Shown: positions 7,763-44,719 of the stretch, in pieces
Position numbering within the stretch: the first letter of the stretch is position 1
Layout of the letters: each line of letters starts with the position of its first letter
Source of the DNA: Gammaproteobacteria bacterium
Lineage (GTDB): Bacteria; Pseudomonadota; Gammaproteobacteria; Steroidobacterales; Rariloculaceae
Direction: 5' to 3'
Assembly (NCBI GenBank): GCA_050485645.1
Contig: JBJHBT010000012.1
Location: 2,597-66,596 of the forward strand
Length of the DNA: 64,000 nt
The notes under the pieces: model-generated
Database searches by the model: none
The model's input: only the letters and a program-made list of their open reading frames with translations
What the model was told of the DNA's origin: nothing
Made by a program: the position numbers and the translations under genes

Positions 7763-8046
7763 GAGTCGCTGCCTGTCACCTGTTCATACTCAATCGCCAC
7801 AGGGTGTTGCAAGGCGCATGCCACCGGAAGCGGTTGATGCGCCGGTTGTCGCCCGTGGCTGCCTGCGCGTCCGTTGGCGTGGCCGATACCCATCCGTTCA
7901 ACGGCCCGCGCGGCGACAGCGGCAGCCTCTGTGGACGGTCTCTGTGGTCGATGTTTGCCGGAAAAGCGGCAACGGATTGCCGCTGCGATCCGCCGCCGCG
8001 GCCGGCTCAGCCGGCGTTGCCCGGACGCACCGCGCCTGTCGCGAGT

Positions 8047-8062
8047 TGGCATGGCTCTTGCT
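8047..8062 (+). promoter_or_regulatory. Sigma-54 promoter upstream of flgB
   Basis: TGGCAT-GGCTC-TTGCT versus consensus TGGCAC-N5-TTGCW. GG and GC are at the correct -24/-12 spacing, 38 nt upstream of the flgB GTG. Confidence 0.75.
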
Positions 8063-17563: not shown

Positions 17564-18544
17564 ATGAATGGCACACGAATGTCCACTTCCATGGTGTACG
17601 CCAACGGCATCAACAGCATCCAGCGCCAGCAGACGGAACTGGCGAGGCTTCAGCAACAGCTTGCCACCGGGCGCCGGATCCTGTCGCCTTCCGATGATCC
17701 GGCAGGGGCGGTGCAGTCGCTGAAGTTTCGCGAGGGCATTGCCGCGGTCGATCAGTACGCACGCAATGCGATGATGGCGAACACTCGCCTGGAACTCGAG
17801 GAGAGCGTGCTGGCGCAGTTCGGCGACGTGCTCCAGCGCGGCCGCGAGCTGGCATTGACCGCCGCCAACGGCACACAGACCAATGAGTCGCGGGCGGCGA
17901 TTGCCGTGGAGATCCGGCAGCTCGCGGACGCCCTGGTGGACCTGGGCAATACCCGTGATGCGAACGGCGAGTATCTGTTCGCCGGGTATCGTTCCACGGA
18001 ACCCCCGTTTGTGCGCAATGGCGGCGGCGAGGTGGTGTTTCAGGGCGATGGCGGGCAGCGCCGGGTGGCGATTTCGCCGGACCGCAGCGTTGCGGTGGGC
18101 GACAGCGGGGATGCCTTCATGCGGCTGACGATTCAGGGCGTTGCAGACCCGGACGACGATCCGCCCGTGGTGCCTGATGTGCGGGTTTCGATGTTCGGCG
18201 TGCTCGACGACATGGCCACTGCCCTGTCCACGCCGCGCACCACGCCGGCCGCCGTCGCGCAGCTTCACGATGAGATGAACCTGTCGTTGCAGGGGTTCGA
18301 TCAGGCGCTGGGCCGTGTTCTCGAGCTGCGTACCGGCGTCGGAACGCGCCTGAACACCATTGAACGCCAGTCCGTCGCCAACGATGACCACAGGCTGCAG
18401 CTGCAGACCGCACTGTCGCAGATCGAGGACCTGGACTACGCCGAGGCGATCAGCCGTTTCAACCTGCAACAGGTGGCCCTGGAAGCGGCGCAGACGACCT
18501 ACGTGCAGTTCGGCCGGCTGAGTCTGTTCGATTATCTGAAGTGA
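17564..18544 (+). CDS. flgL: Flagellar hook-associated protein 3 FlgL
   Basis: Flagellin-like N-terminus (LARLQQQLATGRRILSPSDDPAGA) and C-terminus (DLDYAEAISRFNLQQVALEAAQTTY). Follows flgK. Confidence 0.9.
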   Translation: MNGTRMSTSMVYANGINSIQRQQTELARLQQQLATGRRILSPSDDPAGAVQSLKFREGIAAVDQYARNAMMANTRLELEESVLAQFGDVLQRGRELALTAANGTQTNESRAAIAVEIRQLADALVDLGNTRDANGEYLFAGYRSTEPPFVRNGGGEVVFQGDGGQRRVAISPDRSVAVGDSGDAFMRLTIQGVADPDDDPPVVPDVRVSMFGVLDDMATALSTPRTTPAAVAQLHDEMNLSLQGFDQALGRVLELRTGVGTRLNTIERQSVANDDHRLQLQTALSQIEDLDYAEAISRFNLQQVALEAAQTTYVQFGRLSLFDYLK

Positions 18545-23504: not shown

Positions 23505-23930
23505 GTGATGATGCGTGGCGGGATTCACAGTGGGGTGAAACAGTACCAGCAGGTGGGCATGCAGATGCCGGTGCACGATGCCTCTCCGCATCAGCTGATC
23601 CAGATGATGTTCGATGGCGCCCTGCAGGCACTGGCTGCCGCGCGGGGTGCACTTCAGGCCGGAGAAATCAGCGCCAGGGGCGAGCATATCGGCAAGGCCA
23701 TCGATCTTGTGGAGGGATTGCGCATCAGTCTGGATATGGAACGCGGTGGCGACCTGGCACAGAACCTCGCCGCGCTCTACGACTACATGGCGCGACGCCT
23801 GCTGGAAGCGAACATGCGCGGGGATGACAGCCTACTGGTGGAGGTCACCAGCCTGCTGCGCGAACTGAACACCGGCTGGCAGGAACTTGGCGAGCTGCTG
23901 GTCAGGCACGCGACGGACGAAGTTCGGTGA
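23505..23930 (+). CDS. fliS: Flagellin-specific export chaperone FliS
   Basis: ASPHQLIQMMFDGALQALAAARGAL...KAIDLVEGLRISLDMERGGDLAQNLAALYDYMARRL is a typical FliS core. Confidence 0.9.
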   Translation: MMMRGGIHSGVKQYQQVGMQMPVHDASPHQLIQMMFDGALQALAAARGALQAGEISARGEHIGKAIDLVEGLRISLDMERGGDLAQNLAALYDYMARRLLEANMRGDDSLLVEVTSLLRELNTGWQELGELLVRHATDEVR

Positions 23931-24340
23931 CCGGCGCGACGCTGACGCCTCCCGCTTGCAAGACGCTGCCACCGGGCGACGAGGCTGGCGAGGCCAGTCT
24001 CCACAAGGCACTGGTCGAGCGCGTGGATGCCTGCATCTCGGATGCCGCGCGGGCCGTTCAGGAACACGACTGGCAGGCGGCGGCAGAGGCCAATCAGGCG
24101 CTGCATCGCGTGCTGCTGGAGGTGGAGAAACTGGCCGGTGCGCATGCCGCCGGACAATGGAGTGCGCAGGATCTGTATCCGCTGCTGGCCTGCCTGCAGG
24201 CCGCCAGTGCCGGGCATCGGCGTCTGATCGCAACCCTGGACGCGCAGAAATCAGACACGCTGGAGCAGTTGCGCGGCGTTCGTGCCGGCCACAGACTGAT
24301 GGCCGGGTTTCCGGAGCCGATGGCACAGCCGCCACGATGA
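23927..24340 (+). CDS. Hypothetical helical protein, possibly FliT-like flagellar chaperone
   Basis: 137-aa all-helical ORF. Its GTG overlaps the fliS stop (GTGA) and it sits in the position fliT occupies in related clusters. No strong motif recognised. Confidence 0.35.
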   Translation: MTGATLTPPACKTLPPGDEAGEASLHKALVERVDACISDAARAVQEHDWQAAAEANQALHRVLLEVEKLAGAHAAGQWSAQDLYPLLACLQAASAGHRRLIATLDAQKSDTLEQLRGVRAGHRLMAGFPEPMAQPPR

Positions 24341-24963
24341 GCGATTCGACGACCAGCACGCAAGCACTGTCAGTGGCGCAGCTGCGCGCACTGGGAGATC
24401 ACGTGTACTGCGACGACGAGCTGCGTCTGGAATGGCGACGCATCGACGATCTTCCCCAGGAGCCGGTGCTGGCGCGTTGCAACGCGCGAAACGAGACGAT
24501 GCTGCGCGCATTCGCGATGCTCGAGGAACACGATGTCACCCAGGCCGACGGCGCGGAACGGGCCGAGTTTCACCGACTGGAAGGCAAGCTGGACCTGGCC
24601 CTGGAGCTGCTTGCGGATGTCGTGCGTGAACGCGAGCAGGACGTGTCGCCCGTGCCGGTGCGCTTCAATATGCGCGGTCTGTGCTGGAGCAGCCCGAAGC
24701 GTGCGGAGTCCGGCGAGCTGCTGCGTGTCGACTGCCATCTGCTGCCTCCCTGGCCGTTGCCGCTGCGCCTGTATGCGCAGGTGGTGGGTGTCGAGCGGCA
24801 AGCGGATCTCTGGCTTGTCTGTTCGCGACTGCAGGGCCTGACTCCGGGCGTCGAAGACTGGCTGGCCAAGCTGGTGTTCCGGCGCCATCGTCGCCAGGTT
24901 GCCCGACAGCGTTCGCGCAACCACCGCGCCGTGAGCGACCGGCACGCGGGGGATCCCGACTGA
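24337..24963 (+). CDS. Hypothetical protein, possibly atypical PilZ-like c-di-GMP receptor
   Basis: ATG at 24337 overlaps the upstream stop (ATGA). 208 aa with a beta-rich C-terminal half (VPVRFNMRGLCWSS...LLRVDCHLL...LRLYAQVVGVE) and an Arg-rich tail FRRHRRQVARQR. A PilZ-type gene is known at this position in Xanthomonas-type flagellar clusters. Assignment is tentative. Confidence 0.35.
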   Translation: MSDSTTSTQALSVAQLRALGDHVYCDDELRLEWRRIDDLPQEPVLARCNARNETMLRAFAMLEEHDVTQADGAERAEFHRLEGKLDLALELLADVVREREQDVSPVPVRFNMRGLCWSSPKRAESGELLRVDCHLLPPWPLPLRLYAQVVGVERQADLWLVCSRLQGLTPGVEDWLAKLVFRRHRRQVARQRSRNHRAVSDRHAGDPD

Positions 24964-25140: not shown

Positions 25141-26493
25141 GTGCGCACGTGCATTCGGCGCATGCCGGCAAAGTGCCTCCCCTTCGGCGGTGAAAGGCGC
25201 TGCCGTCACCCGACATCCCGTACACCCATTGACTGTCCCGACGTGAGCAACCCGAACGACGTGAATGCCGGTGGCGCGTTGACCACCGAAGGCGATGCCT
25301 TGTTCAGATCGCTTGTCGGCGACAGCGCTGCGGTGAAGAAAGTGCGTGAGATGATCGCGCAGGTCGCACCGACCGACGCAACGGCGCTGATTCTTGGTGA
25401 GACCGGAACGGGCAAGGAAGTCGTCGCCCGCAATCTGCACTATTTCAGCACGCGTCGCAGCCAGCCATTCGTTGCCGTCAACTGTGGTGCGATTCCGGCT
25501 GAGTTGCTGGAAAGCGAACTGTTCGGCCACGAAAGGGGCGCCTTCACCGGAGCGCTCACCGCCCGCAAGGGGCGTTTCGAACTCGCATCCGGCGGCACGC
25601 TGTTTCTCGACGAGATCGGCGATATGCGGCTCGATATGCAGGTCAAGCTGCTGCGGGTTCTGCAGGAGCGGCGCTTCGACCGCGTCGGCGCGTCATCGAG
25701 CATGAATGTGGACGTGCGTGTGATTGCCGCCACGCACAGGGATCTGGAGCAGATGATCGCGGAGGGCACGTTCCGTGAGGATCTGTACTATCGGCTCAAC
25801 GTCGTGCCTATCGAGATGCCGCCGCTGCGGGACCGCCTCGAGGACATTCCACTGCTGATGGCGGAACTGAATTCGCGTCTGGAAGGACGCGGCCTGACGC
25901 CTTCACGCTTCAGCGACGAAGCCTTCGCCGCGCTGTTTCGCTATGGCTGGACGGGTAACGTCAGGGAACTGGCGAATCTGGTGGAGCGTTTCGCGATACT
26001 GGTACCGGGACGGGAAGTACGGCTGGCGGATCTGCCCGCCAAGATCACAGCCGCACAGAGGCCGGCAGCAAGTGTCGGGTCGCATCATCCTGTTCGGTCG
26101 GCAATACCGGGTGTGACATCGCACGGTTCTATCCCCCAGGGTTCAGCACCCCAGGGTTCACAGCTCCGGGGTTCATTGCCAGAAGGAACGGCCGCCCGTG
26201 GTTCGACGCCGGATCCACTGGCGGTTCCGGGCTCCGGAACGCTGCGCGAACCGGGTCTCCCGCCCGACATCGGCTTCGGTCACGAACCTATCGAGCTCAA
26301 AGGCGTGCTGGAAACCCTGGAGATCAGACTGATCTCGCAGGCACTGGATCGCTGCGGCGGCGTCGTTGCCCACGCGGCACGCAATCTCGGGCTGCGCCGC
26401 ACCACACTGGTGGAGAAGATCCGCAAGTTCGGTATCGAACGCGAAGGCGGTCTGGTCGAGAACGATCAGGCCTCGAGCGCCTCGCACGCCTGA
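25141..26493 (+). CDS. Sigma-54-dependent transcriptional activator without receiver domain (FleQ-like master regulator candidate)
   Basis: AAA+ core with Walker [15 protein letters not shown] loop (HERGAFTGA) and ESELFGH, plus a C-terminal Fis-type HTH ([21 protein letters not shown]). Only about 20-55 aa precede the AAA+ core. Start is uncertain (GTG 25141, ATG 25162 or GTG 25243). Confidence 0.85.
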
Positions 26494-26611
26494 CCCTGGC
26501 GTCGTTGCCGGTGACGGCTGGCCGTCACGGTGCCGTCGCATTGGCGTCGGGATTCCGGCGCCTGCCTGATGCGCTGCCCGCAATCCACTGAAATATGAAC
26601 ACTTTATCGAT

Positions 26612-26627
26612 TGGCACGCTCCTTGCT
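26612..26627 (+). promoter_or_regulatory. Sigma-54 promoter upstream of the second activator gene
   Basis: TGGCAC-GCTCC-TTGCT, an exact match to the -24/-12 consensus, 50 nt upstream of ATG 26678. It is preceded by an AT-rich tract (GAAATATGAACACTTTATCGAT). Confidence 0.8.
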
Positions 26628-26677
26628 TGTGTTCGCTGTGTAGTGAATTCGGCAGCAGAGTCAGGGAGTGCCGCGAT

Positions 26678-27688
26678 ATGCGGGAACAGCGCACCGAAGC
26701 ATCGAACGGATCGGACCATTCGCTGGTAGCGGACGATGCCGCCAGCCGCAATGTGCTGGCGCTGGCGCGGCGGGTTGCAGCGGCCGATGTCACCGTGATG
26801 CTCACGGGTGAATCCGGCGTCGGCAAGGAACTGTACGCGCGCTTCATTCACGAAAATTCCCCGCGCCGCTCACAGCCGTTCGTCGCCGTGAACTGTGCGG
26901 CGATACCGGCGTCGATGCTGGAAGCCACGCTTTTCGGTCACGACAAAGGCGCATTCACAGGCGCCGCCGATGCCCGCTCCGGAAAGTTCGAGCAGGCCGA
27001 TGGCGGCACGCTGCTGCTGGATGAAATAACCGAGATGGCGCTGGATCTCCAGGCCAAACTGCTGCGCGTTCTGCAGGAGCGTGAAGTGGAACGCCTTGGC
27101 GCGTCACGCGCGCGCCGCGTCGACGTGCGCGTCATCGCAACGTCGAATCGTGATCTGCGGCAGGCGGTGCGCGACGGCATCCTGCGCGAAGACATCTACT
27201 ATCGGCTGAACGTGTTTCCGTTGTCGATTCCACCGCTGCGGGAACGGCGCGCGGACATTGTCGTACTGGCGGAACATCTGATCGCCCGCCATGCGGGCGG
27301 TGACACGCTGCCGAAGCTCAGCGCGGGCGCCGCCCGCCACCTCGCCGACCATGACTGGCCCGGCAATGTGCGTGAGCTTGAGAATGTGATCCAGCGTGCG
27401 CTGATCCTTCAGCATGGCGGCAGCATCGAAATCGCCGATCTGCAGCTCGATGCGCTGCCGCTGCATCAGCAGCTGAACCCGGCTCAGGGCATGAATTCGG
27501 GTCAGCCGCAACACCGTGCCGATGACCTTGAGTCGTCGCTGCGCGAATCCGAGGAGCAGCTGATCCTGCATGCCCTGAAAGCCGAGTCCGGGCGCCGCGG
27601 CGCGGCCGCGCAGCGGCTTGGTATCAGCCCCAGGACGCTGCGTTACAAGCTTGCACGCATGCGCGACATGGGCGTCGCCTTGCCATAG
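26678..27688 (+). CDS. Second sigma-54-dependent activator without receiver domain (FleT-like position, first gene of the fliE operon)
   Basis: ATG 26678 with GGGAG RBS; the track TTG at 26627 lies inside the promoter. Walker [15 protein letters not shown] (HDKGAFTGA) and C-terminal [24 protein letters not shown]. About 25 aa precede the AAA+ core. Confidence 0.85.
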
Positions 27689-27761: not shown

Positions 27762-28073
27762 ATGAGCGACATGCGAATCGATCAGGTGATCGCGCAGATG
27801 CGCGAGCTCGCCGCGCGAACCGGCGCGCCGGAAACGACGCAGTCGAACGGCACACAGTTCGCCGGTCTGCTGAAGACCACGCTGGAGTCGGTGAATGCCG
27901 GCCAGCAGCAGGCCTCCGATCTGACGACGCGTTTTGTCAGCGGCGCGACGGACGCGAGCCTGCCGGATGTGGTCGTTGCGATCCAGAAGGCCAGTCTGCA
28001 GTTCGAGGCCGTCACCCAGGTGCGCAACCGGCTTGTGGCCGCTTATCAGGAAATCATGAACATGCCCGTGTAG
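27762..28073 (+). CDS. fliE: Flagellar hook-basal body protein FliE
   Basis: 103 aa. C-terminal VVVAIQKASLQFEAVTQVRNRLVAAYQEIMNMPV is the FliE signature. Confidence 0.95.
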   Translation: MSDMRIDQVIAQMRELAARTGAPETTQSNGTQFAGLLKTTLESVNAGQQQASDLTTRFVSGATDASLPDVVVAIQKASLQFEAVTQVRNRLVAAYQEIMNMPV

Positions 28074-28164
28074 ACGGCCACGCCGCATGGCGTGATCGCG
28101 GCACCGGCCGCCAACCGCAAGATAGAGAACAGTCGCAAGCAACCGATTCGGGGAGCCCGAGAGC

Positions 28165-29835
28165 ATGTCAGATACACTGCCTGCCGCATTGACCAGACAA
28201 CTGGCCGGACTGTCCCGGCTGCCCGCCCATCGTCAGTTCGGGCTGGTGCTGGGTCTTGCCGCCGTTGCCGCCATCGGGATCGCGCTGCTGCTGTGGGGGC
28301 TGCAGCCCCGCTACCAGACGCTGATGCACGATGCCGATGGTCGCGACGTGAGCGAAGCGATCGCCGTGCTCGATCGCAACGACATTCCGCATCGTCTCGA
28401 CCGACGCAGCGGCGCGCTGATGGTGCCCGCCAGCCTGGTCCCGCGCGCTCGTCTGAATCTCGCCAGCAGCGGTTTGCCGCGTGGTCAGGGCATGGGGTTC
28501 GAACTGCTGGAACAGGATACGCGGCTGGGTACCAGCCGCCAGCTGGAAAGCGCGCGGTTCCAGCGCGCTCTGGAAGGCGAGCTGGCACGATCCATCGTGA
28601 CGCTGGACAGCGTGGGCGCCGCCCGGGTGCATCTGGCCATGCCGCGTGAAACGGTGTTTCGCCGTGACCGCGCGCGTCCCAGTGCGTCGGTGCTGGTGAA
28701 TCTGCGTCCCGGCCGTCAGCTCGACGAGACACAGGTGGCCGGTATCGTCCACCTGGTGGCTGCCAGCGTCCCGGAACTGGAGGTGGAACAGGTGACCGTG
28801 GTCGATCAGCGCGGCCGCATGCTCAGCCAGGTGGCGGCGAGCAGTGGCGGCGCCATGCCGGCGCAGCAGCTGGAGTACACGCGGCGCATCGAAGACGCCT
28901 ATCGTCAGCGTGTCGAGGCTATTCTCGCGCCGCTGGTCGGCCCGGATGGACTGCGGGTTCAGATTACCGCCGAAGTCGATTTCACTCAGGTGGAAAGCAC
29001 GCGTGAAACCTTCGATTCCAGCAATCCGGCACTGCGCAGCGAACAGATCCGCGAGGAGGACGCCGTCGGCAGCAGCAATGGCGGGGTGCCGGGCTCGCTG
29101 ACCAATCAGCCCCCCGCGGCCGCCACGGTGGCTGCGGCGAACGGTGATCAGGACTCGGTGGCCGGTGAACCGGTTGCCGGCGCGCCAACCACCCGCAACC
29201 GTAGCAGCACACGCAACTTCGAGCTGGACAGAACCATTGATCACATCCGGCATGCACCCGCCACGCTGAAGCGTCTGTCCGTTGCCGTCGTCGTCGATCA
29301 TCGCATGGTGGCTGGCGAAGATGCGGCCGCCGCCACCCGGATGCCCTGGGATGCGGAAGGCCTTGCGCAGCTCAATGCGCTGGTGCGTGAAGCGGTGGGT
29401 CTTGACGAGCAGCGTGGCGATCGGCTCAACGTGGTCAACGCCTCGTTCCGCGATCTGGAGGTGGCCGATTCGCTGCCGGAAACACCCTTGTGGCAGATGC
29501 TCCGTCAGGAACCATGGGTGGCTGACGCGGCCCGCTATGCGCTCGCGACGCTGGGCTTTCTGATGCTGATCATGATGGTGCTGCGTCCTGCGCTGAAGTC
29601 TCTGGCGCAGCTGCCACCCGCGGCCCTGCCGGCAACCGCGGCAGCCGGCTCCCATGCCCAGGGCCTGCCGGCGCCGGCTGGCGCCGCGCTGACCCGGCAG
29701 GCGGATGCCTCGGCCAGGCAGGCGGCGGATGCGTCTGCCGAACAGGACCTTGGCAAGGCGCGCCAGCTGGCCACGCAGGATCCGCGCATGGTCGCGCAGG
29801 TGGTCCGTCAATGGATGAATGAAGATGGTCAATGA
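28165..29835 (+). CDS. fliF: Flagellar MS-ring protein FliF
   Basis: 556 aa with an N-terminal TM segment. GFELLEQDTRLGTSRQLESARFQRALEGELARSI and HLAMPRETVFRRDRARPSASVLVNL are typical FliF. Confidence 0.95.
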   Translation: MSDTLPAALTRQLAGLSRLPAHRQFGLVLGLAAVAAIGIALLLWGLQPRYQTLMHDADGRDVSEAIAVLDRNDIPHRLDRRSGALMVPASLVPRARLNLASSGLPRGQGMGFELLEQDTRLGTSRQLESARFQRALEGELARSIVTLDSVGAARVHLAMPRETVFRRDRARPSASVLVNLRPGRQLDETQVAGIVHLVAASVPELEVEQVTVVDQRGRMLSQVAASSGGAMPAQQLEYTRRIEDAYRQRVEAILAPLVGPDGLRVQITAEVDFTQVESTRETFDSSNPALRSEQIREEDAVGSSNGGVPGSLTNQPPAAATVAAANGDQDSVAGEPVAGAPTTRNRSSTRNFELDRTIDHIRHAPATLKRLSVAVVVDHRMVAGEDAAAATRMPWDAEGLAQLNALVREAVGLDEQRGDRLNVVNASFRDLEVADSLPETPLWQMLRQEPWVADAARYALATLGFLMLIMMVLRPALKSLAQLPPAALPATAAAGSHAQGLPAPAGAALTRQADASARQAADASAEQDLGKARQLATQDPRMVAQVVRQWMNEDGQ

Positions 29836-30826
29836 GGTTCTTAGCATGGATGGCGCAACGCGTGCCGCGGTGTTTCTGATGAGTCTGGGCGAGGACACTG
29901 CTTCGGCCGTGCTCAAGCACCTCGGTCCCAAGGAAGTACAGCAGATCGGGATGACCATGGCGACACTGCCATCGGTGTCGCGTACGGACATTCGCAAGGT
30001 GGTGACGGACTTCAATGCGGCTGTCGACGGCGGTGGCGGCATCAGCGTGCCGGGCGAGGAATACCTGCGCAAGGTGCTGACGCAGGCGGTTGGCGAACAG
30101 CAGGCACGCGGACTTGTGGATCGCATTCTGGCCGGTACGTCATCGGGTGGCCTGGAGTCGCTGAAGTGGATGGATGGCCGTTCGGTAGCCGACATGATCC
30201 GCAATGAGCATCCGCAGATCATCGCCATTGTGGTGTCCTATCTGAACAGCGACCGAGCGGCCGATGTGCTGACCCATCTGCCCGACGCGGTGCGCAGTGA
30301 CGTGATCATGCGTGTTGCGTCGCTCGAAAGTATCAATCCGAACGCGCTGCAGGAACTGGACAGGATTCTCGAACGGCAGTTCTCCGGCAGCACCACCAGC
30401 AACGCGGCTATCAGCGGTGGCCTCAAGCGTGCGGCCGACATACTGAACTTCATGGACAGCTCGGATGAGGAATCCATCCTCGCCACCATTCGCGGCAGTG
30501 ACGAAGTGCTCAGTACCAAGATCCAGGAGCTGATGTTCACGTTCGACAATCTGCTGGAGCTGGACGATCGCAGCATCCAGCGTGTGCTGCGTGAAGTTTC
30601 CAGCGAGCAGCTTGTGCCGGCCATGAAGGGTGCGACACCGGAAATCAGGGAGCTGCTGCTGAAGAATATGTCCAAGCGTGCCGCCGAGGCGCTGGTCGAA
30701 GATCTGGAACTGCGCGGTCCGATGCGTGTCTCGGATGTGGAAGCCGCGCAGAAGGACATTCTCGCCGTGGTGCGCAGGCTCGCGGACGAAGGCGAGATCG
30801 CGCTGGGTGGCGAGGCCTATGTCTGA
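29819..30826 (+). CDS. fliG: Flagellar motor switch protein FliG
   Basis: GATRAAVFLMSLGEDTASAVLKHLGPKEVQQIG and C-terminal MSKRAAEALVEDLELRGPMRVSDVEAAQKDIL. The start could be 29846 (GAGG RBS 8 nt upstream). Confidence 0.93.
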   Translation: MKMVNEVLSMDGATRAAVFLMSLGEDTASAVLKHLGPKEVQQIGMTMATLPSVSRTDIRKVVTDFNAAVDGGGGISVPGEEYLRKVLTQAVGEQQARGLVDRILAGTSSGGLESLKWMDGRSVADMIRNEHPQIIAIVVSYLNSDRAADVLTHLPDAVRSDVIMRVASLESINPNALQELDRILERQFSGSTTSNAAISGGLKRAADILNFMDSSDEESILATIRGSDEVLSTKIQELMFTFDNLLELDDRSIQRVLREVSSEQLVPAMKGATPEIRELLLKNMSKRAAEALVEDLELRGPMRVSDVEAAQKDILAVVRRLADEGEIALGGEAYV

Positions 30827-31559
30827 GGTCGGCGCACACACGCAACACCGCGCAGCGAACCGTGTCACCGGCATCGCCGATGTCACGGATGTCACGGATG
30901 TCAGCGACGTCACCGGCGCTGCCGGTGTCGCGGCAGGTGAGCCCGGGGTGGCACGCTGGCAGGCGCCGCCGATCACCGGCACCGCGGCGCGCGAAACGTC
31001 CGGCGGCGGTACGCAGCCGCTGACCGCACAGCGCCTGGCGCAGATCGAGGACGAAGCCCGACGCGAAGGTTACCGTGCGGGCCTGGAGGAGGGTCGGCAG
31101 GCCGGGGCCCATGAACTGGCGCATCAGGGACGACGTCTGGAACGTCTCATGGCCACTATCGATCCGCGCAGCAATGTGCTCGACGACGCGCTGCTCGATC
31201 AGCTCGGTGAACTGGTGCTGGTGATTGCCCGGCAGCTCATTCGCCGTGAGCTGAAGCGGGAGCCGGGCGAGATCGTTCAGGTCATCCGGGAAGCGCTGAC
31301 GGTGCTGCCGGTTTCCGATGCCGCCATCAGGCTGTATCTGCATCCGGATGATGCGGCGCTGGTTCGCAGTGTGCTGCGACCCGACGGCATGGAGCGGCCG
31401 CTGCACATCCAGGAGGAACTCACGATGACGCCGGGTGGCGCCAGGATCGAGACGGAAACGTCGCTGGTGGATGCCACCGTGGAAGCGCGCATCAACGCGA
31501 TCGCCGCACGGATTCTTGGCGACGAACGAGGCAATGGCGGTGGCGGCGAAGGTGATTGA
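30819..31559 (+). CDS. fliH: Flagellar export apparatus protein FliH
   Basis: ATG at 30819 overlaps the fliG stop. EARREGYRAGLEEGRQAG and LVLVIARQLIRRELKREPGEIVQVIREAL are FliH-like. The track start at 30678 lies inside fliG. Confidence 0.85.
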   Translation: MSEVGAHTQHRAANRVTGIADVTDVTDVSDVTGAAGVAAGEPGVARWQAPPITGTAARETSGGGTQPLTAQRLAQIEDEARREGYRAGLEEGRQAGAHELAHQGRRLERLMATIDPRSNVLDDALLDQLGELVLVIARQLIRRELKREPGEIVQVIREALTVLPVSDAAIRLYLHPDDAALVRSVLRPDGMERPLHIQEELTMTPGGARIETETSLVDATVEARINAIAARILGDERGNGGGGEGD

Positions 31560-32964
31560 GCTGGAAGACAGCCCCGGTCTGACGCACCGCAGGGCGCATG
31601 CCCTGGCGCGCGTGGCCGAATGGCGCGAAGCGGCGAATCAGCGTGTGCCGCTGATCGCCGAGGGCCGGCTGGTGTCGATGGTGGGCATGACGCTGGAAGC
31701 GGTGGGCTGTGAGGTGCCGGTCGGCGGGCGATGCCGGATCGTCGGGCACGATCGGCGCAGCATCGAAGCAGAGGCCGTCGGCTTTGCCGGCGACCGGCTG
31801 TACCTGATGCCGGTGGGCCGCATCGGCGGTCTGATGCCCAAATCCCGTGTCATTCCCACCTCTCTGCGGCATTCGGTGCCGGTGGGTGACGCGCTGCTCG
31901 GCAGGGTCGTCAATCCGTTCGGTGAGCCGCTGGATGATGGTGAGCCGCCGCGCTGCCCGGACAGGGCGCCGCTGGAAGGCCAGCGGATCAATCCGCTGGG
32001 CCGTGACCCGGTGCGACAGACACTGGATGTGGGTGTGCGCACCATCAACTCGCTGTTCACCATAGGTCGCGGGCAGCGTATCGGGCTGTTCGCCGGCAGT
32101 GGTGTCGGCAAGAGCGTGCTGCTGGGCATGATGGCGCGCTTCACATCGGCCGATGTGATTGTCGTCGGGCTGATTGGCGAGCGTGGCCGCGAAGTCAACG
32201 AATTCATCCGCGAAACGCTGGGCGCGGCCGGCCTTGCCCGGTCGGTCGTGGTGGTGGCACCGGCGGACGATCCGCCGCTGATGCGTCTGCAGGGCGCCAG
32301 GACCGCGACGGCGATCGCCGAACACTACCGCGATCGCGGCATGAACGTGCTGCTGCTGATGGATTCGCTGACCCGCTACGCCCAGGCACAGCGTGAGATC
32401 GGCCTGGCCATCGGCGAGCCGCCGGTGACGCGCGGGTACACGCCATCGGTTTTCGCGCGGCTGCCGCAGCTGCTGGAACGTGCCGGCAACGCGGGACCGG
32501 GCGGCGGCTCGATCACCGGCATCTACACCGTGCTCGCGGAAGGCGACGACGTGCAGGATCCGGTTGCCGATGCCGCACGCGCGGTGCTGGATGGTCACAT
32601 CGTGCTCACGCGTCGCATCGCCGAGAGCGGCCGCTATCCGGCCATCGATATCGAGGCCTCGGTGAGTCGTGTGATGCATTCCATCGTCTCCATGGAACAC
32701 CGCACGCTCGCACAGCAGTTCAGGCGGATCCATTCGTGTTACGAGCAGCACCGCGACCTGATCAGTGTCGGTGCGTATCGGCGCGGCAGCGATCCCGACG
32801 TGGATCGGGCGATCGCGCTGCGACCGGCAATGGAAAGCTTTCTCCAGCAACAGCCGGAAGCCGCTGTCGATGTGCAGCGCAGCATTGCGGAGCTGGCCGA
32901 TCTGCTGGCGGAGCCGGAAGCACCCGCTGCCGGGCCTGACGAAGGCCGCGAGGCCCGGTCATGA
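31534..32964 (+). CDS. fliI: Flagellum-specific ATPase FliI
   Basis: Walker A GSGVGKSVLLGMM and Walker B VLLLMDSLTRYAQAQREI; F1/T3SS-ATPase-like throughout. Start chosen at ATG 31534, overlapping the fliH end. Confidence 0.93.
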   Translation: MAVAAKVIELEDSPGLTHRRAHALARVAEWREAANQRVPLIAEGRLVSMVGMTLEAVGCEVPVGGRCRIVGHDRRSIEAEAVGFAGDRLYLMPVGRIGGLMPKSRVIPTSLRHSVPVGDALLGRVVNPFGEPLDDGEPPRCPDRAPLEGQRINPLGRDPVRQTLDVGVRTINSLFTIGRGQRIGLFAGSGVGKSVLLGMMARFTSADVIVVGLIGERGREVNEFIRETLGAAGLARSVVVVAPADDPPLMRLQGARTATAIAEHYRDRGMNVLLLMDSLTRYAQAQREIGLAIGEPPVTRGYTPSVFARLPQLLERAGNAGPGGGSITGIYTVLAEGDDVQDPVADAARAVLDGHIVLTRRIAESGRYPAIDIEASVSRVMHSIVSMEHRTLAQQFRRIHSCYEQHRDLISVGAYRRGSDPDVDRAIALRPAMESFLQQQPEAAVDVQRSIAELADLLAEPEAPAAGPDEGREARS

Positions 32965-33428
32965 AGCAGCGCGCCGATGCCGGTCTTGCCACGGTGCTGC
33001 GGCTCAAGACCGAGGAAGAACGGGTGGCGGCGGCCTCGCTGCGGGCCGCGCAGGCACGTCACGACGTGGAGGTTGCGCACCTGGAGACGGCACAACGTTA
33101 CCTGGATGACTATCGTCTGAGCGCGACGACTCTGAGCGCGACGACGCCGCAGTCGAATTCGCGCCTGCTGCGAGACGGTCACCGCTTTCTGCTGCAACTG
33201 GAACAGGCGCTGGTGACACAGCGTCAGGCGGTGGAAAACGAGCAGCGCAACGTCGAGTTTGCGCGCGCGCACTGGGTTGCCGCCCGCGTGCAGCGTGAGG
33301 CGATCGAGAAACTGATTGGTCGCCGCAGCGAACAGACCGAACGCGAGCAGCGCTGGCTGGAACAACGCCAGTCAGACGAACATGCCATGCAGGCGGCAGC
33401 GCGCGCGCGGGTTGTCAATCAGGGCTGA
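32961..33428 (+). CDS. fliJ: Flagellar export protein FliJ
   Basis: 155-aa coiled-coil ORF. ATGA overlap with the fliI stop. Position and heptad character fit FliJ. Confidence 0.8.
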   Translation: MKQRADAGLATVLRLKTEEERVAAASLRAAQARHDVEVAHLETAQRYLDDYRLSATTLSATTPQSNSRLLRDGHRFLLQLEQALVTQRQAVENEQRNVEFARAHWVAARVQREAIEKLIGRRSEQTEREQRWLEQRQSDEHAMQAAARARVVNQG

Positions 33429-33438
33429 GTGCGCCGGC

Positions 33439-33454
33439 TGGCACTGCGCTTGCA
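33439..33454 (+). promoter_or_regulatory. Sigma-54 promoter upstream of fliK
   Basis: TGGCAC-TGCGC-TTGCA, an exact consensus match. It starts 11 nt after the fliJ stop and about 108 nt upstream of the fliK ATG. Confidence 0.75.
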
Positions 33455-34599: not shown

Positions 34600-34789
34600 C
34601 TTCGAGCGGGTTGCACGGCCCGCACGTCCACCGTCGCCGTTCCGTCGCCGGCGCGTCAAGCCCTTGACGCGGCACCTCGAAATTCCCGCCGGCATGCGCC
34701 GGATGCGCTTCCCGCCGGCGCTTCGCCGAAAGTAAAAAATATCGATAAAACATCGATATACGATGCCCCGCGACGATGATCCGCGCGGC

Positions 34790-42462: not shown

Positions 42463-43851
42463 ATGAACGTTAAACGATTCCTGGCGCCGGACATGCGCCG
42501 TGCGATCAATCAGGTCAGGGCCGTTCATGGTCCGGACGCGGTGATCCTGTCGAGTCGTTCGGTGGGCGAGGGCGTGGAGATCGTCGCGGCCATCGACTAC
42601 GACCCGGAGCTGCTGGCCGCGCTGTCGCGCGAGTCGGCGTCGCAGGAGGAATCGGATCAGGCGCAGTCCCGCGCCACCGCCACCGCCACCGCCGACAGAC
42701 CGGGTGACAGCAGCCCCGATAGCGGGCCGGATGCCGGCGTGGGTGCCAACGCCCGGACCGAATCGCGGGGCGACGCACCGCTCGACGTACAGGCCGACGT
42801 ACAGGCCGACGCACAGGCCGACGCACGGGGAGAGAAGGGGTCGGCCGACATGGCATCGACAGCGCTGGCTCAGGATGCGTCCGCGGCGCCAGCGACGGAG
42901 ACGGTGACCACCGGTGCCGCAGGTGGCGTGAAGGGCGTTGTGGTTGACACATCGGATCCGGCGCTGGCAACCCTGGAGCTGGAGGTGAAGGCACTGAAGA
43001 ACATGCTGCGGGAGCAGTTCGCGCGGCTGAGCTGGGCCGACATGAAAACCTTCGATCCCGAGCGTGCGGCACTGCTGCGCAGAGTCGAATCCATCGGCAT
43101 TGCCCCGGCGCTGGCCGCGACACTGGTGGCGGAGGTGGCGAACATCAACGAGCCGGACAGGGCGTGGCGCGAGGTGCTGTATGCCCTGACGCGGCGTGTG
43201 CAGGTGCTGCGTGACGATCCGCTGGAGCAGGAAGGCGCGATCGCGCTGATCGGTCCCACCGGCGTCGGCAAGACGACCACGATCGCCAAGCTCGCCGCGC
43301 GGCATTGCCTGCGCTACGGCCGCGATTCGCTGGCACTGATCACCACGGACAATTTCCGCGTCGGCGCGCAGCGGCAGCTGGATGCCTTCGGCGCCATTCT
43401 CGGTGTACCGGTGCGTCGTGCCGACACCGGAGAAGAACTGACCGTGCTGCTGGACGAGTATCGCAGCAGGCGACTGGTGCTGATCGACACCGCCGGCATC
43501 GCGCCGCGCGACGCCCGGCTTGCAGCGACGATGAAGCCGCTCGAGACGGCACCCGGACTGCGCCGTTTCCTCGTCCTGTCGGCCAACCTTCAGGAATCGG
43601 TGATGCGCGATGCGTTGCGGTGCTTTGGCGGCGCGTCGCTGTCGGGCGTGGTGCTGAGCAAACTGGACGAAGCCAATGGTCTGGGTGCCGCATTGTCGGC
43701 GCTGGTTGATGAGCGGTTGCCGGTTGCGTGGCTCAGCGATGGTCAGCGGGTTCCGGAAGACCTGCGACTGGCACGCATCGCCAATCTGATCGGCTGGGCG
43801 ACCCGGCCGGTCGATGATGTGGAAAAGGATGTGCGGCATGCGGCAGCCTGA
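42463..43851 (+). CDS. flhF: Flagellar biosynthesis SRP-type GTPase FlhF
   Basis: N-terminal MNVKRFLAPDMRRAINQVRAVHGPDAVILS. G-domain motifs LIGPTGVGKTTTIAKLA, LIDTAG and LSKLDE. Confidence 0.93.
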   Translation: MNVKRFLAPDMRRAINQVRAVHGPDAVILSSRSVGEGVEIVAAIDYDPELLAALSRESASQEESDQAQSRATATATADRPGDSSPDSGPDAGVGANARTESRGDAPLDVQADVQADAQADARGEKGSADMASTALAQDASAAPATETVTTGAAGGVKGVVVDTSDPALATLELEVKALKNMLREQFARLSWADMKTFDPERAALLRRVESIGIAPALAATLVAEVANINEPDRAWREVLYALTRRVQVLRDDPLEQEGAIALIGPTGVGKTTTIAKLAARHCLRYGRDSLALITTDNFRVGAQRQLDAFGAILGVPVRRADTGEELTVLLDEYRSRRLVLIDTAGIAPRDARLAATMKPLETAPGLRRFLVLSANLQESVMRDALRCFGGASLSGVVLSKLDEANGLGAALSALVDERLPVAWLSDGQRVPEDLRLARIANLIGWATRPVDDVEKDVRHAAA

Positions 43852-44719
43852 AGACCAGGCCGCCGGCCTGCGGCGGCTCTATGCACCTTCGCAACTGAAA
43901 GTAATCGCAGTGGCCAGCGGTAAGGGCGGCGTGGGCAAGACCACGGTGGCCATCAATCTGGCCGTGGCGCTGGCGAAGCAGGGCAGGGGAACGCTGCTCA
44001 TGGACGCCGACCTGGGGCTTGCCAACGTCGATGTGATGCTCGGTCTGAAGCCCGTCGCGACCGTGGAACAGGTGTTGTCCGGCGAGCATCGACTCGAGGA
44101 CGTCATGCTCGAAGGTCCGGCGGGGCTGAAGATTCTGCCTGGTGCTTCGGGCGTGTCGGCGCTGGCGCGTCTGGATTCCAGTGTTCAGCACGGCCTCATC
44201 AGTGCGTTTTCGACGCTGCCCTATACACCGGATGCGATGGTCATCGATGTGGCCACCGGCATCGATGCGTCCGTGCTCGGCTTCTGCGGTGCCGCGCACG
44301 AAGTCGTCGTCGTGGTCTGCGACGATGCGGCATCGATCACCGATGCCTATGCGCTGATCAAGCTGCTGTCGCGCGAGCGCGGCGTGAAGTGCTTCCGGAT
44401 TTTGTGCAACCGCGTGAATCACGCGACTCAGGGAATGGCGCTGTTCCGCCGACTGGAAAAAGTCTGTGATCGCTTTCTCAGCATCACCCTGCACCACTTC
44501 GGTTCCGTACCCGACGACCCGGCCGTGGCGTTCTCGGCGCGTATCCGGCGCTCGGTGGTGGAGTCGCTGCCCACAAGCCCTGCCGGCCGGACATTCAAGG
44601 ATCTGGCCGCCCGTGCCGATAAATGGGCAGTACCTCGGTCATCGAGTGCCAGGCCGCTGTTCTTTCTGGAGCGACTGCTGCGGAACGGTGAGGCCTCGGC
44701 CATGACGGCGGGGGGCTGA
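43838..44719 (+). CDS. flhG: MinD-type ATPase FlhG/FleN (flagellar number regulator)
   Basis: ATG 43838 overlaps the flhF end. Deviant Walker A VASGKGGVGKTTVAINLA. Follows flhF and precedes fliA. Confidence 0.9.
   Translation: MRQPEDQAAGLRRLYAPSQLKVIAVASGKGGVGKTTVAINLAVALAKQGRGTLLMDADLGLANVDVMLGLKPVATVEQVLSGEHRLEDVMLEGPAGLKILPGASGVSALARLDSSVQHGLISAFSTLPYTPDAMVIDVATGIDASVLGFCGAAHEVVVVVCDDAASITDAYALIKLLSRERGVKCFRILCNRVNHATQGMALFRRLEKVCDRFLSITLHHFGSVPDDPAVAFSARIRRSVVESLPTSPAGRTFKDLAARADKWAVPRSSSARPLFFLERLLRNGEASAMTAGG

What the first reader, a model, noticed from the sequence alone, without database searches (positions are those of the whole stretch)
25141..27688. Two adjacent sigma-54 activators that both lack receiver/sensor domains, the second heading the fliE operon
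Both ORFs consist essentially of an AAA+ sigma-54 activation core (Walker A, GAFTGA) plus a C-terminal Fis-type HTH. Only about 20-55 residues precede the AAA+ domain. No histidine kinase or REC-type FleR/FlrC is present anywhere in the cluster. The second gene has its own perfect sigma-54 promoter (26612-26627) and is followed after 73 nt by fliEFGHIJ with no promoter motif in between.

The textbook gammaproteobacterial cascades (FleQ then FleS/FleR, or FlrA then FlrB/FlrC) differ from this. It resembles the Rhodobacter sphaeroides fla1 FleQ/FleT system, where fleT is the first gene of the fliE operon and the two domain-less activators act together. That system is thought to have come from a gammaproteobacterium. 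Unlike my recollection of FleT, the second protein here keeps a clear HTH.

Inference: a two-tier activator cascade in which activator 1 turns on activator 2.
Basis: partly seen in the sequence, partly recalled or inferred. Interest (0 to 1): 0.55.

Follow-up and report, generated by a model that had tools for sequence, protein, structure and literature searches.

The report
Domain-stripped FleQ and FleR flagellar activators
Two neighbouring flagellar gene switches are orthologues of the well-known FleQ and FleR/FlrC regulators that have lost their input domains and their kinase, so the second tier is probably controlled by when it is made rather than by phosphorylation; this is a natural variant of a known cascade, not a new kind of system.

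Summary
Window 25162/25243-26493 (EBP1) and 26678-27688 (EBP2) each encode only a sigma-54 AAA+ core, a lid and a Fis-type HTH. An exact sigma-54 promoter sits at 26612. fliE starts 73 nt after EBP2 with no promoter or terminator between. The window has no histidine kinase and no REC-type activator.

EBP1 is an orthologue of FleQ/FlrA that lacks the N-terminal FleQ (REC-like) domain. EBP2 is an orthologue of FleR/FlrC that lacks REC, and fleS/flrB is absent. No remnants of the lost parts are detectable.

REC-less FlrC with no kinase is widespread: 91 of the 120 best database hits, including Ectothiorhodospira and Thioalkalivibrio sp. XN279. N-less FleQ is confined to a small nested clade of uncultured gammaproteobacteria that includes this one.

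The EBP2 promoter sits where the fleSR promoter sits in canonical loci. A FleQ-box-like palindrome lies at a similar distance upstream of it in the three closest loci. Each protein keeps the recognition helix of its own orthologue.

Best reading: a FleQ-to-FleR cascade stripped of its input domains, with EBP2 gated by synthesis. The Rhodobacter FleQ/FleT resemblance is real but partial, because EBP2 keeps its HTH. I could not obtain FleT, so that orthology is untested. This is a new variant of a known kind, of moderate interest.

The parts
7808..7823 (-). sigma-54 promoter-like site upstream of flgA (TGGCATGCGCCTTGCA)
   Evidence: 10/11 consensus positions. It lies in the divergent flgA/flgB intergenic region.
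8047..8062 (+). sigma-54 promoter-like site upstream of flgB (TGGCATGGCTCTTGCT)
   Evidence: 10/11 consensus positions. It lies upstream of the flgBCDEFGHIJKL genes.
23927..24340 (+). small ORF in the position of fliT
   Evidence: No Pfam hit. It has the same position as the FliT or FliT-weak genes in L083 and L087.
24337..24963 (+). atypical PilZ (tPilZ) gene immediately upstream of EBP1
   Evidence: PF16823, E 4e-14. A homologue sits at this place in all seven related REC-less loci: L001-3, L082, L083, L086 and L087. It is also present in three canonical loci.
25162..26493 (+). EBP1: FleQ/FlrA orthologue without the N-terminal FleQ (REC-like) domain. The start may be as late as GTG 25243.
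   Evidence: Pfam. Best PDB match is P. aeruginosa FleQ, E 8.6e-122, with the alignment starting at the LFRS linker. It scores 369 bits to PaFleQ against 230 to PaFleR. It falls in a clade of 19 N-less FleQ sequences. The catalytic and c-di-GMP/ATP contact residues are conserved.
26523..26562 (+). candidate enhancer: three CGTC repeats phased 11 bp apart, ending in the palindrome GGCGTCGGGATTCCGGCGCC
   Evidence: CGTC-N7-CGTC-N7-CGTC occurs twice in 64 kb against 0.06 expected. Both copies lie upstream of sigma-54 promoters. The palindrome lies at a similar distance from the promoter in L001, L002 and L003. That it binds EBP1 is inferred.
26612..26627 (+). sigma-54 promoter of the EBP2-fliEFGHIJ transcription unit
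   Evidence: Exact TGGCAC-N5-TTGC. A sigma-54 site is found in L001-3, L082 and L083, and it is positionally equivalent to the fleSR promoter of canonical loci.
26678..27688 (+). EBP2: FleR/FlrC orthologue without a REC domain and without a cognate kinase
   Evidence: Pfam. Best PDB match is the V. cholerae FlrC AAA+ domain, E 1.7e-89. It scores 339 bits to PaFleR against 253 to PaFleQ, and its HTH helix is of the FleR type. It is a member of a large REC-less clade.
27762..33428 (+). fliE fliF fliG fliH fliI fliJ, probably co-transcribed with EBP2
   Evidence: Pfam. The gap is 73 nt with no promoter or terminator. The gaps are 12-62 nt in the related REC-less loci whose genes were called.
33439..33454 (+). 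sigma-54 promoter upstream of fliK
   Evidence: Exact match. A corresponding site is found just after fliJ in L001-3, L082, L086 and L087.
34632..34669 (+). second CGTC x3 array, ending in the FleQ box GTCAAGCCCTTGAC, 135 nt upstream of the fliL promoter
   Evidence: GTCAA-N4-TTGAC-like sites are found upstream of the fliL promoter in L001, L002 and L083. It matches the published P. aeruginosa FleQ box GTCAAT-N2-ATTGAC (PMC10723142).
34790..34805 (+). sigma-54 promoter of fliLMNOPQR (fliL probably starts at ATG 34862)
   Evidence: Exact match. Sequence read. Corresponding sites are present in relatives.
43814..44719 (+). fleN/flhG-type ATPase, the likely anti-activator of EBP1
   Evidence: ParA/MinD-family domains, located between flhF and fliA. 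FleN binds the AAA+ domain of FleQ, not its REC domain (PMC8528422).
44721..45440 (+). fliA (sigma-28), the late tier of the hierarchy
   Evidence: Sigma70_r2, r3 and r4 domains.

Best explanation
This is a FleQ -> FleR/FlrC flagellar cascade of the Pseudomonas/Vibrio type that has lost its input domains.

EBP1 is the FleQ/FlrA master activator minus its N-terminal REC-like domain. It is presumably made from its own promoter, which I did not identify. It would bind FleQ-box-like sites (GTC-N8-GAC) upstream of the sigma-54 promoters at 26612 and 34790. It would remain open to control by FleN and perhaps c-di-GMP, because in P. aeruginosa FleQ both act on the AAA+ core.

The 26612 promoter drives one transcript that carries EBP2 and fliEFGHIJ. 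EBP2 is FleR/FlrC minus its receiver domain, and the kinase gene is gone. It cannot be switched by phosphorylation, so it is probably active as soon as it is made. It would bind its own enhancers through its retained FleR-type HTH and activate the remaining sigma-54 promoters (flgB, flgA, fliK). FliA/FlgM then run the late genes.

Shown here: domain content, orthology, absence of kinase, REC and FleQ N-domain, the promoter and its recurrence in related loci, and recurrence of the arrangement. Inferred: who binds where, co-transcription, constitutive activity of EBP2, and the FleN and c-di-GMP inputs.
For: - Domain content and N-terminal limits.
- Orthology: the PDB best hits are FleQ and FlrC. 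Reciprocal BLAST to P. aeruginosa FleQ and FleR, and recognition helices [13 protein letters not shown] (FleQ type) and [16 protein letters not shown] (FleR type), agree.
- Canonical loci carry fleQ, a gap of about 1.1-1.5 kb (fleS in the annotated P. aeruginosa locus), REC-fleR and fliE at the same place. Here the kinase, REC and FleQ N-domain are absent with no remnants.
- The same gene order (fliS, fliT-like, tPilZ, fleQ, REC-less flrC, fliEFGHIJ) occurs in seven other loci. Four have an N-less FleQ and three have a full FleQ.
- 91 of the 120 best EBP2 hits have a short N-terminus. In an NJ tree, 83 of 89 REC-less sequences form one clade.
- N-less FleQ forms a pure clade of 19, nested among full-length FleQs.
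- A sigma-54 promoter precedes EBP2 in all five REC-less loci examined and is positionally equivalent to PfleSR.
- Candidate FleQ sites lie upstream of two promoters (expected 0.06, found 2). The fliL FleQ box recurs in relatives.
- There is no promoter or terminator between EBP2 and fliE.
- The isolated FlrC AAA+ domain crystallised with seven chains per entry. The JBC 2015 title cited calls it heptameric. This suggests it can oligomerise without REC.
- FleN binds the AAA+ domain of FleQ, and c-di-GMP is held by R144, R185, R334 and E330. These residues are conserved in EBP1 and its clade.
Against: - There is no experimental or expression evidence of any kind.
- The palindrome before the EBP2 promoter matches the P. 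aeruginosa FleQ box in only 5 of 12 positions. Only the outer GTC/G(A/G)C triplets and their spacing are shared.
- I found no candidate EBP2 binding sites.
- In P. aeruginosa the FleQ REC-like domain is described as essential for activity (PMC10723142), and FleQ AAA+ alone has weak ATPase (PMC8528422). An N-less FleQ acting alone is therefore not a given.
- R144, R185 and R334 also coordinate ATP, so their conservation does not prove c-di-GMP binding.
- Whether a REC-less FlrC is constitutively active depends on whether REC acts negatively or positively in this lineage. That is unknown.
- The trees are NJ without support values, on a sample biased toward the query.
Confidence: 0.62

Rival explanations
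1. The pair works like Rhodobacter sphaeroides FleQ/FleT. EBP1 alone activates only the EBP2-fliE operon. EBP1 and EBP2 then form mixed AAA+ rings, and only the mixed rings activate the later sigma-54 promoters. The switch between classes would therefore be set by subunit composition.
For: - Three features match the published R. sphaeroides system: both activators lack N-terminal regulatory domains, the second is the first gene of a sigma-54-dependent fliE operon, and no kinase is present.
- The AAA+ cores of EBP1 and EBP2 are 54.5% identical.
- The P. aeruginosa FleQ REC-like domain is needed for dimerisation and activity. An N-less FleQ might therefore lean on a partner.
- One MAG encodes a single 717-aa protein that joins FleQ (N-domain plus AAA+, no HTH) to a REC-less FlrC, inside a flagellar locus (L088). 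If real, this fusion hints at co-assembly.
Against: - EBP2 keeps a well-scoring HTH_8 with the FleR/FlrC recognition helix. All 120 closest relatives keep HTH_8 too. FleT has none.
- In Ectothiorhodospira, Thioalkalivibrio sp. XN279 and a gammaproteobacterial MAG (L087), REC-less FlrC is paired with a full-length FleQ. REC loss therefore did not depend on FleQ truncation.
- The fusion protein is a singleton cluster and may be an artefact.
- FleT orthology could not be tested.
Confidence: 0.2
2. EBP2 is not constitutive. Control by phosphorylation has been replaced by a protein partner or ligand that acts on the AAA+ core. Candidates are the conserved neighbouring tPilZ protein, FleN/FlhG, or a structural flagellar protein encoded in the same operon.
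For: - A tPilZ gene sits directly upstream of fleQ in every REC-less locus examined.
- A REC-GGDEF-EAL gene and two HDOD genes flank the cluster.
- Regulation of N-less activators by anti-activators has precedent in PspF/PspA, HrpS/HrpV and FleQ/FleN.
Against: tPilZ also occurs in three canonical loci that keep kinase and REC, so it is not a specific replacement. There is no direct evidence for any partner. This reading can coexist with the best explanation.
Confidence: 0.13
3. One of the two genes is a decaying or unexpressed paralogue, and the truncations are recent damage in this genome or assembly.
For: Only the unusual domain content. EBP1 in this window also carries a G/S/P-rich linker of about 60-80 residues that is absent from relatives.
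Against: - Both ORFs are intact, with Walker A, GAFTGA, Walker B and arginine fingers conserved.
- The same truncated forms recur in many independent genomes and metagenomes: 19 N-less FleQ and about 90 REC-less FlrC clusters.
- There are no pseudogene remnants.
- The promoter and a ribosome-binding site are present.
Confidence: 0.03

Closest known systems
Pseudomonas aeruginosa FleQ - FleS/FleR (equivalent to Vibrio cholerae FlrA - FlrB/FlrC) four-tier flagellar hierarchy
   Same: - EBP1 and EBP2 are the orthologues of FleQ and FleR by reciprocal best match, and each keeps the matching HTH recognition helix.
- The chromosomal position is the same, between fliS and fliE.
- A sigma-54 promoter precedes the second-tier gene.
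- FleN, FlhF, FliA and FlgM are present.
- A FleQ-box-like site precedes the fliL promoter.
   Different: - FleQ lacks its N-terminal REC-like domain.
- The kinase FleS/FlrB is absent.
- FleR/FlrC lacks its receiver domain, so the phosphorylation step cannot exist.
- A tPilZ gene precedes fleQ.
Rhodobacter (Cereibacter) sphaeroides fla1 FleQ/FleT
   Same: - Two adjacent-tier sigma-54 activators, both without N-terminal regulatory domains.
- The second is the first gene of a sigma-54-dependent operon continuing into fliEFGHIJ.
- No two-component kinase.
- Sources: PMC7277832, PMC9542535 and PMC11999139.
   Different: FleT lacks a DNA-binding domain and works only in a hetero-oligomer with FleQ. 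EBP2 keeps a FleR-type HTH. Sequence-level orthology was not tested because the R. sphaeroides sequences could not be obtained.
REC-less FlrC with full-length FleQ in Ectothiorhodospira spp., Thioalkalivibrio sp. XN279 and gammaproteobacterial MAGs (annotated only; I found no study of it)
   Same: Same gene order tPilZ - fleQ - REC-less flrC - fliE, no kinase, and a sigma-54 promoter before flrC. These FlrC proteins are 60-65% identical to EBP2.
   Different: FleQ there retains PF06490 (473-504 aa). The window's lineage has lost it as well.
Other N-less sigma-54 activators: LafK, PspF, HrpR/HrpS
   Same: They consist of an AAA+ core plus HTH with no sensory domain (PMC3162934). HrpR/HrpS are a co-dependent adjacent pair.
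   Different: They are different orthologous groups and regulons. HrpR/HrpS are recent paralogues, whereas EBP1 and EBP2 are FleQ-type and FleR-type orthologues respectively.
Erythrobacteraceae (Qipengyuania, Croceicoccus, Citromicrobium) FlrC-like activator directly upstream of fliE
   Same: An activator with no Pfam REC domain immediately precedes fliE, with a PilZ gene nearby.
   Different: Only one activator was seen in the stretch examined. The protein is about 417-428 aa in database records, with a roughly 100-aa N-terminal region of unknown nature. It is basal in the NJ tree.

Membership tests
FleQ/FlrA master regulator | Central sigma-54 AAA+ domain closest to FleQ/FlrA | tested here: met
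   Best PDB hit is P. aeruginosa FleQ 8p53, E 8.6e-122. EBP1 scores 369 bits to PaFleQ against 230 to PaFleR. JGI names for homologues read 'sigma-54 specific flagellar transcriptional regulator A'.
FleQ/FlrA master regulator | N-terminal FleQ (REC-like, non-phosphorylatable) domain PF06490 | tested here: not met
   No Pfam hit. At most about 55 residues precede the AAA+ core. There is no remnant anywhere in the window.
FleQ/FlrA master regulator | C-terminal HTH with the FleQ recognition helix, and FleQ boxes at target promoters | tested here: met
   HTH_8, E 2.4e-12. The helix [13 protein letters not shown] compares with PaFle[14 protein letters not shown]. GTCAAGCCCTTGAC lies upstream of the fliL promoter and recurs in relatives. 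Binding itself was not tested.
FleQ/FlrA master regulator | c-di-GMP/ATP contact residues R144, R185, N186, E330 and R334, and a FleN partner | tested here: met
   The residues are conserved in EBP1 and in 16 of the other 18 members of its clade. A fleN-type gene lies at 43814-44719. Ligand and FleN binding were not tested, and the arginines also serve ATP binding.
FleS/FleR (FlrB/FlrC) two-component system | AAA+ and HTH closest to FleR/FlrC | tested here: met
   Best PDB hit is V. cholerae FlrC 4qhs, E 1.7e-89. EBP2 scores 339 bits to PaFleR against 253 to PaFleQ, and its helix is [16 protein letters not shown].
FleS/FleR (FlrB/FlrC) two-component system | Receiver (REC) domain with a phospho-acceptor aspartate | tested here: not met
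   No PF00072 hit. Sixteen residues precede the AAA+ core.
FleS/FleR (FlrB/FlrC) two-component system | Cognate histidine kinase gene between fleQ and fleR | tested here: not met
   The intergenic gap is 184 nt. tblastn with PaFleS finds nothing better than E 0.026 in the window. The gap is about 1.1-1.5 kb in most canonical loci, and fleS fills it in the annotated P. aeruginosa locus.
FleS/FleR (FlrB/FlrC) two-component system | Sigma-54 promoter upstream of the second-tier gene | tested here: met
   An exact site at 26612, found in all five REC-less loci examined, matches the position of sigma-54 sites before fleS in nine canonical loci.
R. sphaeroides FleQ/FleT system | Both activators lack N-terminal regulatory domains | tested here: met
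   for the window. PMC9542535 for R. sphaeroides.
R. sphaeroides FleQ/FleT system | The second activator is the first gene of a sigma-54-dependent operon with fliEFGHIJ | tested here: met
   Promoter at 26612, a 73-nt gap, and no promoter or terminator. PMC7277832 for R. sphaeroides. Co-transcription is inferred, not measured.
R. sphaeroides FleQ/FleT system | The second activator lacks a DNA-binding domain | tested here: not met
   EBP2 has HTH_8, E 3.8e-12. FleT lacks an HTH.
R. sphaeroides FleQ/FleT system | The hetero-oligomer is the active species at later promoters | not testable with these tools
   This needs two-hybrid, co-purification or reporter assays.
R. sphaeroides FleQ/FleT system | Orthology of EBP1/EBP2 with R. 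sphaeroides FleQ/FleT | not tested
   None of the collections reachable here yielded the R. sphaeroides sequences.

The most novel reading that the evidence does not exclude
The REC-less FlrC lineages (tPilZ - fleQ - flrC - fliE, no kinase), of which this window is the most reduced form, may be the natural intermediate between the FleQ/FleS/FleR cascade and the R. sphaeroides FleQ/FleT system. In these bacteria the class II to class III transition would be set by mixed FleQ/FlrC rings, or simply by co-expression of FlrC with the MS-ring, C-ring and export genes, rather than by a phosphorylation checkpoint. That would make the supposedly essential FlrB/FleS checkpoint and the FleQ REC-like domain dispensable in a wide range of polar flagellates.
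Probability: 0.2. Interest if true: 0.6.

Novelty: new variant of a known kind. Interest (0 to 1): 0.42.

Why it matters
In Pseudomonas and Vibrio, two features are treated as central to polar flagellar gene control. One is phosphorylation of FleR/FlrC by FleS/FlrB. The other is the REC-like domain of FleQ, which recent FleQ-FleN structural work calls essential for activity.

Here a whole lineage has dropped the kinase and receiver, and a nested clade has dropped the FleQ N-domain as well. Catalytic motifs, DNA-binding helices, promoters and gene order are all kept.

This gives natural minimal versions of both regulators for asking three questions:
- What do the lost domains contribute?
- Is timing achieved by transcriptional coupling to fliEFGHIJ or by mixed rings?
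- How did the R. sphaeroides FleQ/FleT arrangement arise?

The finding bears on comparative and evolutionary questions. It does not reveal a new mechanism.

Tried and rejected
- R. sphaeroides FleQ/FleT sequences for a joint phylogeny. None of these approaches yielded them:
  - tblastn of EBP2 and FliF against plasmids found no Rhodobacterales fla cluster.
  - The representative search plus cluster look-ups named only Ectothiorhodospira, Croceicoccus, Steroidobacteraceae and Pseudomonadales.
  - The last homologue search, with the Qipengyuania activator, returned only Erythrobacteraceae.
  - Poggio 2007 and Matsuyama 2016 are not held in the library.
- Source organism. The exact fliE and EBP2 proteins are not in the contig index. 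Cluster look-up gives only 'NCBI, 104,927-bp contig'. The nearest named relatives are an uncultured gammaproteobacterium and a Candidatus Rariloculaceae MAG.
- EBP2 binding sites. Shared 9-mers among the flgA/B, fliK, EBP2 and fliL regulatory regions, and inspection of fliK promoter regions in five loci, gave nothing convincing.
- Promoter for EBP1. Aligning the tPilZ-EBP1 intergenic regions of four loci showed no clearly conserved element. The sigma-70 scan found none on the + strand.
- tPilZ as a specific replacement for the kinase. Rejected, because three canonical loci also carry it.
- Tandem repeat in the EBP1 linker. TRF found none.
- Degenerate palindrome CGTCR-N6-YGACG. It is too frequent in this GC-rich DNA to be useful alone (50 hits against 30 expected). 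Only the phased triple repeat and the strict FleQ box were informative.


Full report
**The observation**

The window is a 65% G+C gammaproteobacterial flagellar cluster. Pfam scans of the ORFs give this order:
- flgN flgM flgA on the minus strand
- flgB to flgL
- a TPR-sulfotransferase gene
- fliC, fliD, fliS, a fliT-position ORF and an atypical PilZ (tPilZ) gene
- the two activators
- fliEFGHIJ and fliK
- fliLMNOPQR, flhB, flhA, flhF, a fleN-type ATPase, fliA and motAB
- HDOD, REC-GGDEF-EAL and HDOD genes on the other strand

Both reported ORFs exist. Each consists only of Sigma54_activat, AAA_lid_14 and HTH_8.

An in-frame stop limits EBP1 to about 55 residues ahead of the AAA+ core. The public protein with 100% identity starts at 25162 and is 443 aa.

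EBP2 starts at ATG 26678 behind an AGGGAG ribosome-binding site. It matches a public 336-aa protein exactly, which leaves 16 residues ahead of the core.

TGGCACGCTCCTTGCT at 26612 is an exact sigma-54 consensus. fliE begins 73 nt after the EBP2 stop. There is no sigma-70-like promoter, terminator or sigma-54 motif between them.

No kinase was found, and the only receiver domain belongs to the REC-GGDEF-EAL gene.

**What the two proteins are**

EBP1's best solved relative is P. aeruginosa FleQ (E 8.6e-122). The alignment begins exactly at the LFRS linker that opens the FleQ AAA+ domain, and picks up again at the HTH.

EBP2's best solved relative is the AAA+ domain of V. cholerae FlrC (E 1.7e-89).

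Against the P. aeruginosa proteins taken from an annotated record, EBP1 scores 369 bits to FleQ and 230 to FleR. EBP2 scores 339 bits to FleR and 253 to FleQ.

The HTH recognition helices are of the matching type. EBP1 has [13 protein letters not shown] against Fle[17 protein letters not shown]2 has [16 protein letters not shown] against Fle[17 protein letters not shown].

So these are FleQ/FlrA and FleR/FlrC orthologues that have lost their N-terminal domains. tblastn with FleQ N-domains, FleS and the FleR receiver finds no remnants near them. The losses are therefore clean and not recent decay.

**How common this is**

Of the 120 best database hits to EBP2, 91 have a short N-terminus. They are 311-374 aa proteins without PF00072. 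They come from Ectothiorhodospira species, Thioalkalivibrio sp. XN279 and many uncultured gammaproteobacteria. The next-best hits are ordinary 445-460-aa FlrC proteins with REC, at about 60% identity.

In an NJ tree, 83 of 89 REC-less sequences form one clade. The six Ectothiorhodospira sequences sit next to a small REC-containing group, so there were one or two losses.

For EBP1, only about 20 of the 120 best hits lack PF06490. Nineteen of them, including the window's protein, form a pure clade nested among full-length FleQs.

Eight loci, the window included, have the order tPilZ, fleQ, REC-less flrC, fliEFGHIJ:
- Five have an N-less FleQ: the window, L001, L002, L003 and L086.
- Three have a full-length FleQ: L082 (Ectothiorhodospira shaposhnikovii), L083 (Thioalkalivibrio sp. 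XN279) and L087.

Canonical loci at the same chromosomal place carry fleQ, in most cases a gap of about 1.1-1.5 kb, REC-fleR and fliE. In the annotated P. aeruginosa locus that gap is fleS.

The likely order of events is loss of the kinase and receiver first, then loss of the FleQ N-domain in a narrower lineage. The closest named relatives of the window are an uncultured gammaproteobacterium and a Candidatus Rariloculaceae MAG. The source organism itself could not be named.

**Regulatory DNA**

A sigma-54 site precedes the REC-less flrC in all five REC-less loci examined. It sits where canonical loci, including P. aeruginosa, have the sigma-54 site before fleS.

About 60 nt upstream of it lies the palindrome GGCGTCGGGATTCCGGCGCC. 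Similar palindromes lie at a similar distance in L001, L002 and L003; L003 has GCGTCAGAATTCTGACGC.

In the window this palindrome ends an array of three CGTC repeats phased 11 bp apart. That phased pattern occurs only twice in 64 kb, against 0.06 expected. The other copy lies upstream of the fliL sigma-54 promoter. There it ends in GTCAAGCCCTTGAC.

That sequence matches the published P. aeruginosa FleQ box, GTCAAT-N2-ATTGAC (PMC10723142), in 10 of 12 positions. Similar boxes lie upstream of the fliL promoter in L001, L002 and L083.

Together with the conserved FleQ-type helix, this supports EBP1 acting at the EBP2 and fliL promoters. In Pseudomonas the corresponding promoters belong to the FleQ-dependent class (own knowledge). 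The support is inference only, and the EBP2-promoter site is a weak match to the Pseudomonas box.

The sigma-54 site before fliK recurs across relatives. I found no candidate FlrC sites.

**Mechanism**

The best-supported reading is a FleQ-to-FleR cascade without input domains. EBP1 activates the EBP2-fliEFGHIJ and fliL operons. EBP2 has no receiver and no kinase, so it cannot be phosphorylated and is probably active on synthesis. It would use its own FleR-type HTH at the remaining sigma-54 promoters.

Two published points make this plausible. The isolated FlrC AAA+ domain crystallised with seven chains per entry, and the JBC 2015 title calls it heptameric. From my own knowledge, and not checked here, deleting the receiver of Campylobacter FlgR gives kinase-independent activity.

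Losing sensor domains does not remove all input to EBP1. FleN binds the AAA+ domain of FleQ, not its REC or DNA-binding domains (PMC8528422). c-di-GMP is held by R144, R185, R334 and E330 of the AAA+ region (PMC10723142).

All of these residues, plus N186, are conserved in EBP1 and in 16 of the other 18 members of its clade. A fleN-type gene is present. The arginines also serve ATP binding, so this is permissive evidence only.

One point counts against a simple picture. The same structural paper calls the FleQ REC-like domain essential for activity, and FleQ AAA+ alone is a weak ATPase. How an N-less FleQ assembles is therefore open.

**The Rhodobacter comparison**

The literature confirms the following for R. 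sphaeroides:
- FleQ activates the fleT-fliEFGHIJ operon.
- A FleQ/FleT hetero-oligomer activates the next class.
- Both proteins lack N-terminal regulatory domains.
- FleT also lacks an HTH.

The window shares the first-gene-of-the-fliE-operon arrangement, the sigma-54 dependence and the missing N-domains. It fails the 'no DNA-binding domain' feature.

Mixed rings cannot be excluded. One MAG encodes a single 717-aa protein that joins FleQ (N-domain plus AAA+, no HTH) to a REC-less FlrC within a flagellar locus. This would be a fusion-type hint of co-assembly, but it is a singleton.

I could not obtain the R. sphaeroides sequences, so orthology with FleT is untested.

**Verdict**

The finding is real and correctly described. 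It is best filed as a domain-reduced variant of the FleQ-FleS/FleR cascade, architecturally part-way to FleQ/FleT. The REC-less FlrC state is widespread, and I found no study of it in the held literature. The doubly reduced state is confined to a small uncultured clade.

It is a new variant of a known kind and moderately interesting. Its value is as a natural experiment on what the kinase, the receiver and the FleQ N-domain are for.

Noticed in passing
L088 5001-7154 (NCBI MAG GCA_054043545.1, contig JBPKTA010000124.1): A single 717-aa protein (P0243) joins a FleQ N-domain plus AAA+ (matching PaFleQ 7-390, no HTH) to a REC-less FlrC AAA+ plus HTH (49.5% identical to EBP2 residues 16-336). It sits after flhA-flhF-fleN-fliA-DUF2802. 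It is a singleton cluster. It is either an assembly or deletion artefact or a natural fusion of the two flagellar activators.
   Followed up: partly
window 26060-26260 (inside EBP1): The linker between the AAA+ lid and the HTH of EBP1 carries about 60-80 extra G/S/P/Q-rich residues (for example [26 protein letters not shown]). The roughly 360-aa relatives lack them. No DNA tandem repeat was detected.
   Followed up: partly
window 24337-24963; L001, L002, L003, L082, L083, L086, L087: An atypical PilZ gene (PF16823) with a conserved C-terminal KxVFRRHRRxxAxxR motif sits directly upstream of fleQ in every REC-less locus. It is also present in three canonical loci (L016, L017, L021). Its role is unknown.
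   Followed up: partly
window 18541-20178: A TPR plus sulfotransferase-family gene lies between flgL and fliC. It may be a flagellin-modifying enzyme.
   Followed up: no
window 51346 (- strand), 6793 (- strand), 47671-51273: A sigma-28-like motif, TAAAG-N15-GCCGATA, lies upstream of an HDOD gene (50428-51273). A looser one lies upstream of flgM. HDOD, REC-GGDEF-EAL and HDOD genes sit next to motAB, which suggests c-di-GMP genes wired into the late flagellar tier.
   Followed up: no
L086 4668-5780 (P0154) and P0142: A second, separate small group of N-less FleQ proteins has R334 replaced by Q. The LFRS motif is LFRP in P0154 and APQP in P0142. In P. aeruginosa FleQ, R334 and R144 of the LFRS motif are needed for both ATP and c-di-GMP handling.
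   Followed up: no
Search of protein representatives output (P0244-P0260 and others): Many 560-1030-aa proteins with two, and in one case three, tandem sigma-54 AAA+ modules outrank single-domain FlrC proteins. This looks like a class of double-AAA+ enhancer-binding proteins. Most are singletons from metagenomes.
   Followed up: partly
L084 8746-9912 (Qipengyuania citrea plasmid NZ_CP098495.1) and P0397-P0516: Erythrobacteraceae carry a FlrC-like activator with no Pfam REC domain whose gene overlaps the start of fliE. A PilZ gene and a flagellin gene lie divergently upstream. In this strain the cluster is on a 270-kb plasmid.
   Followed up: partly
L001 about 8330-8480: The relative's tPilZ-fleQ intergenic region contains a run of about 17-nt repeats (GCCGGAATGAGCCATCT-like) that the window and L002/L003 lack.
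   Followed up: no
window 56456-58156 and 60763-62052: There are two genes with the Kdo-transferase N-terminal domain (PF04413) about 2.6 kb apart. The first is unusually long at 566 aa.
   Followed up: no
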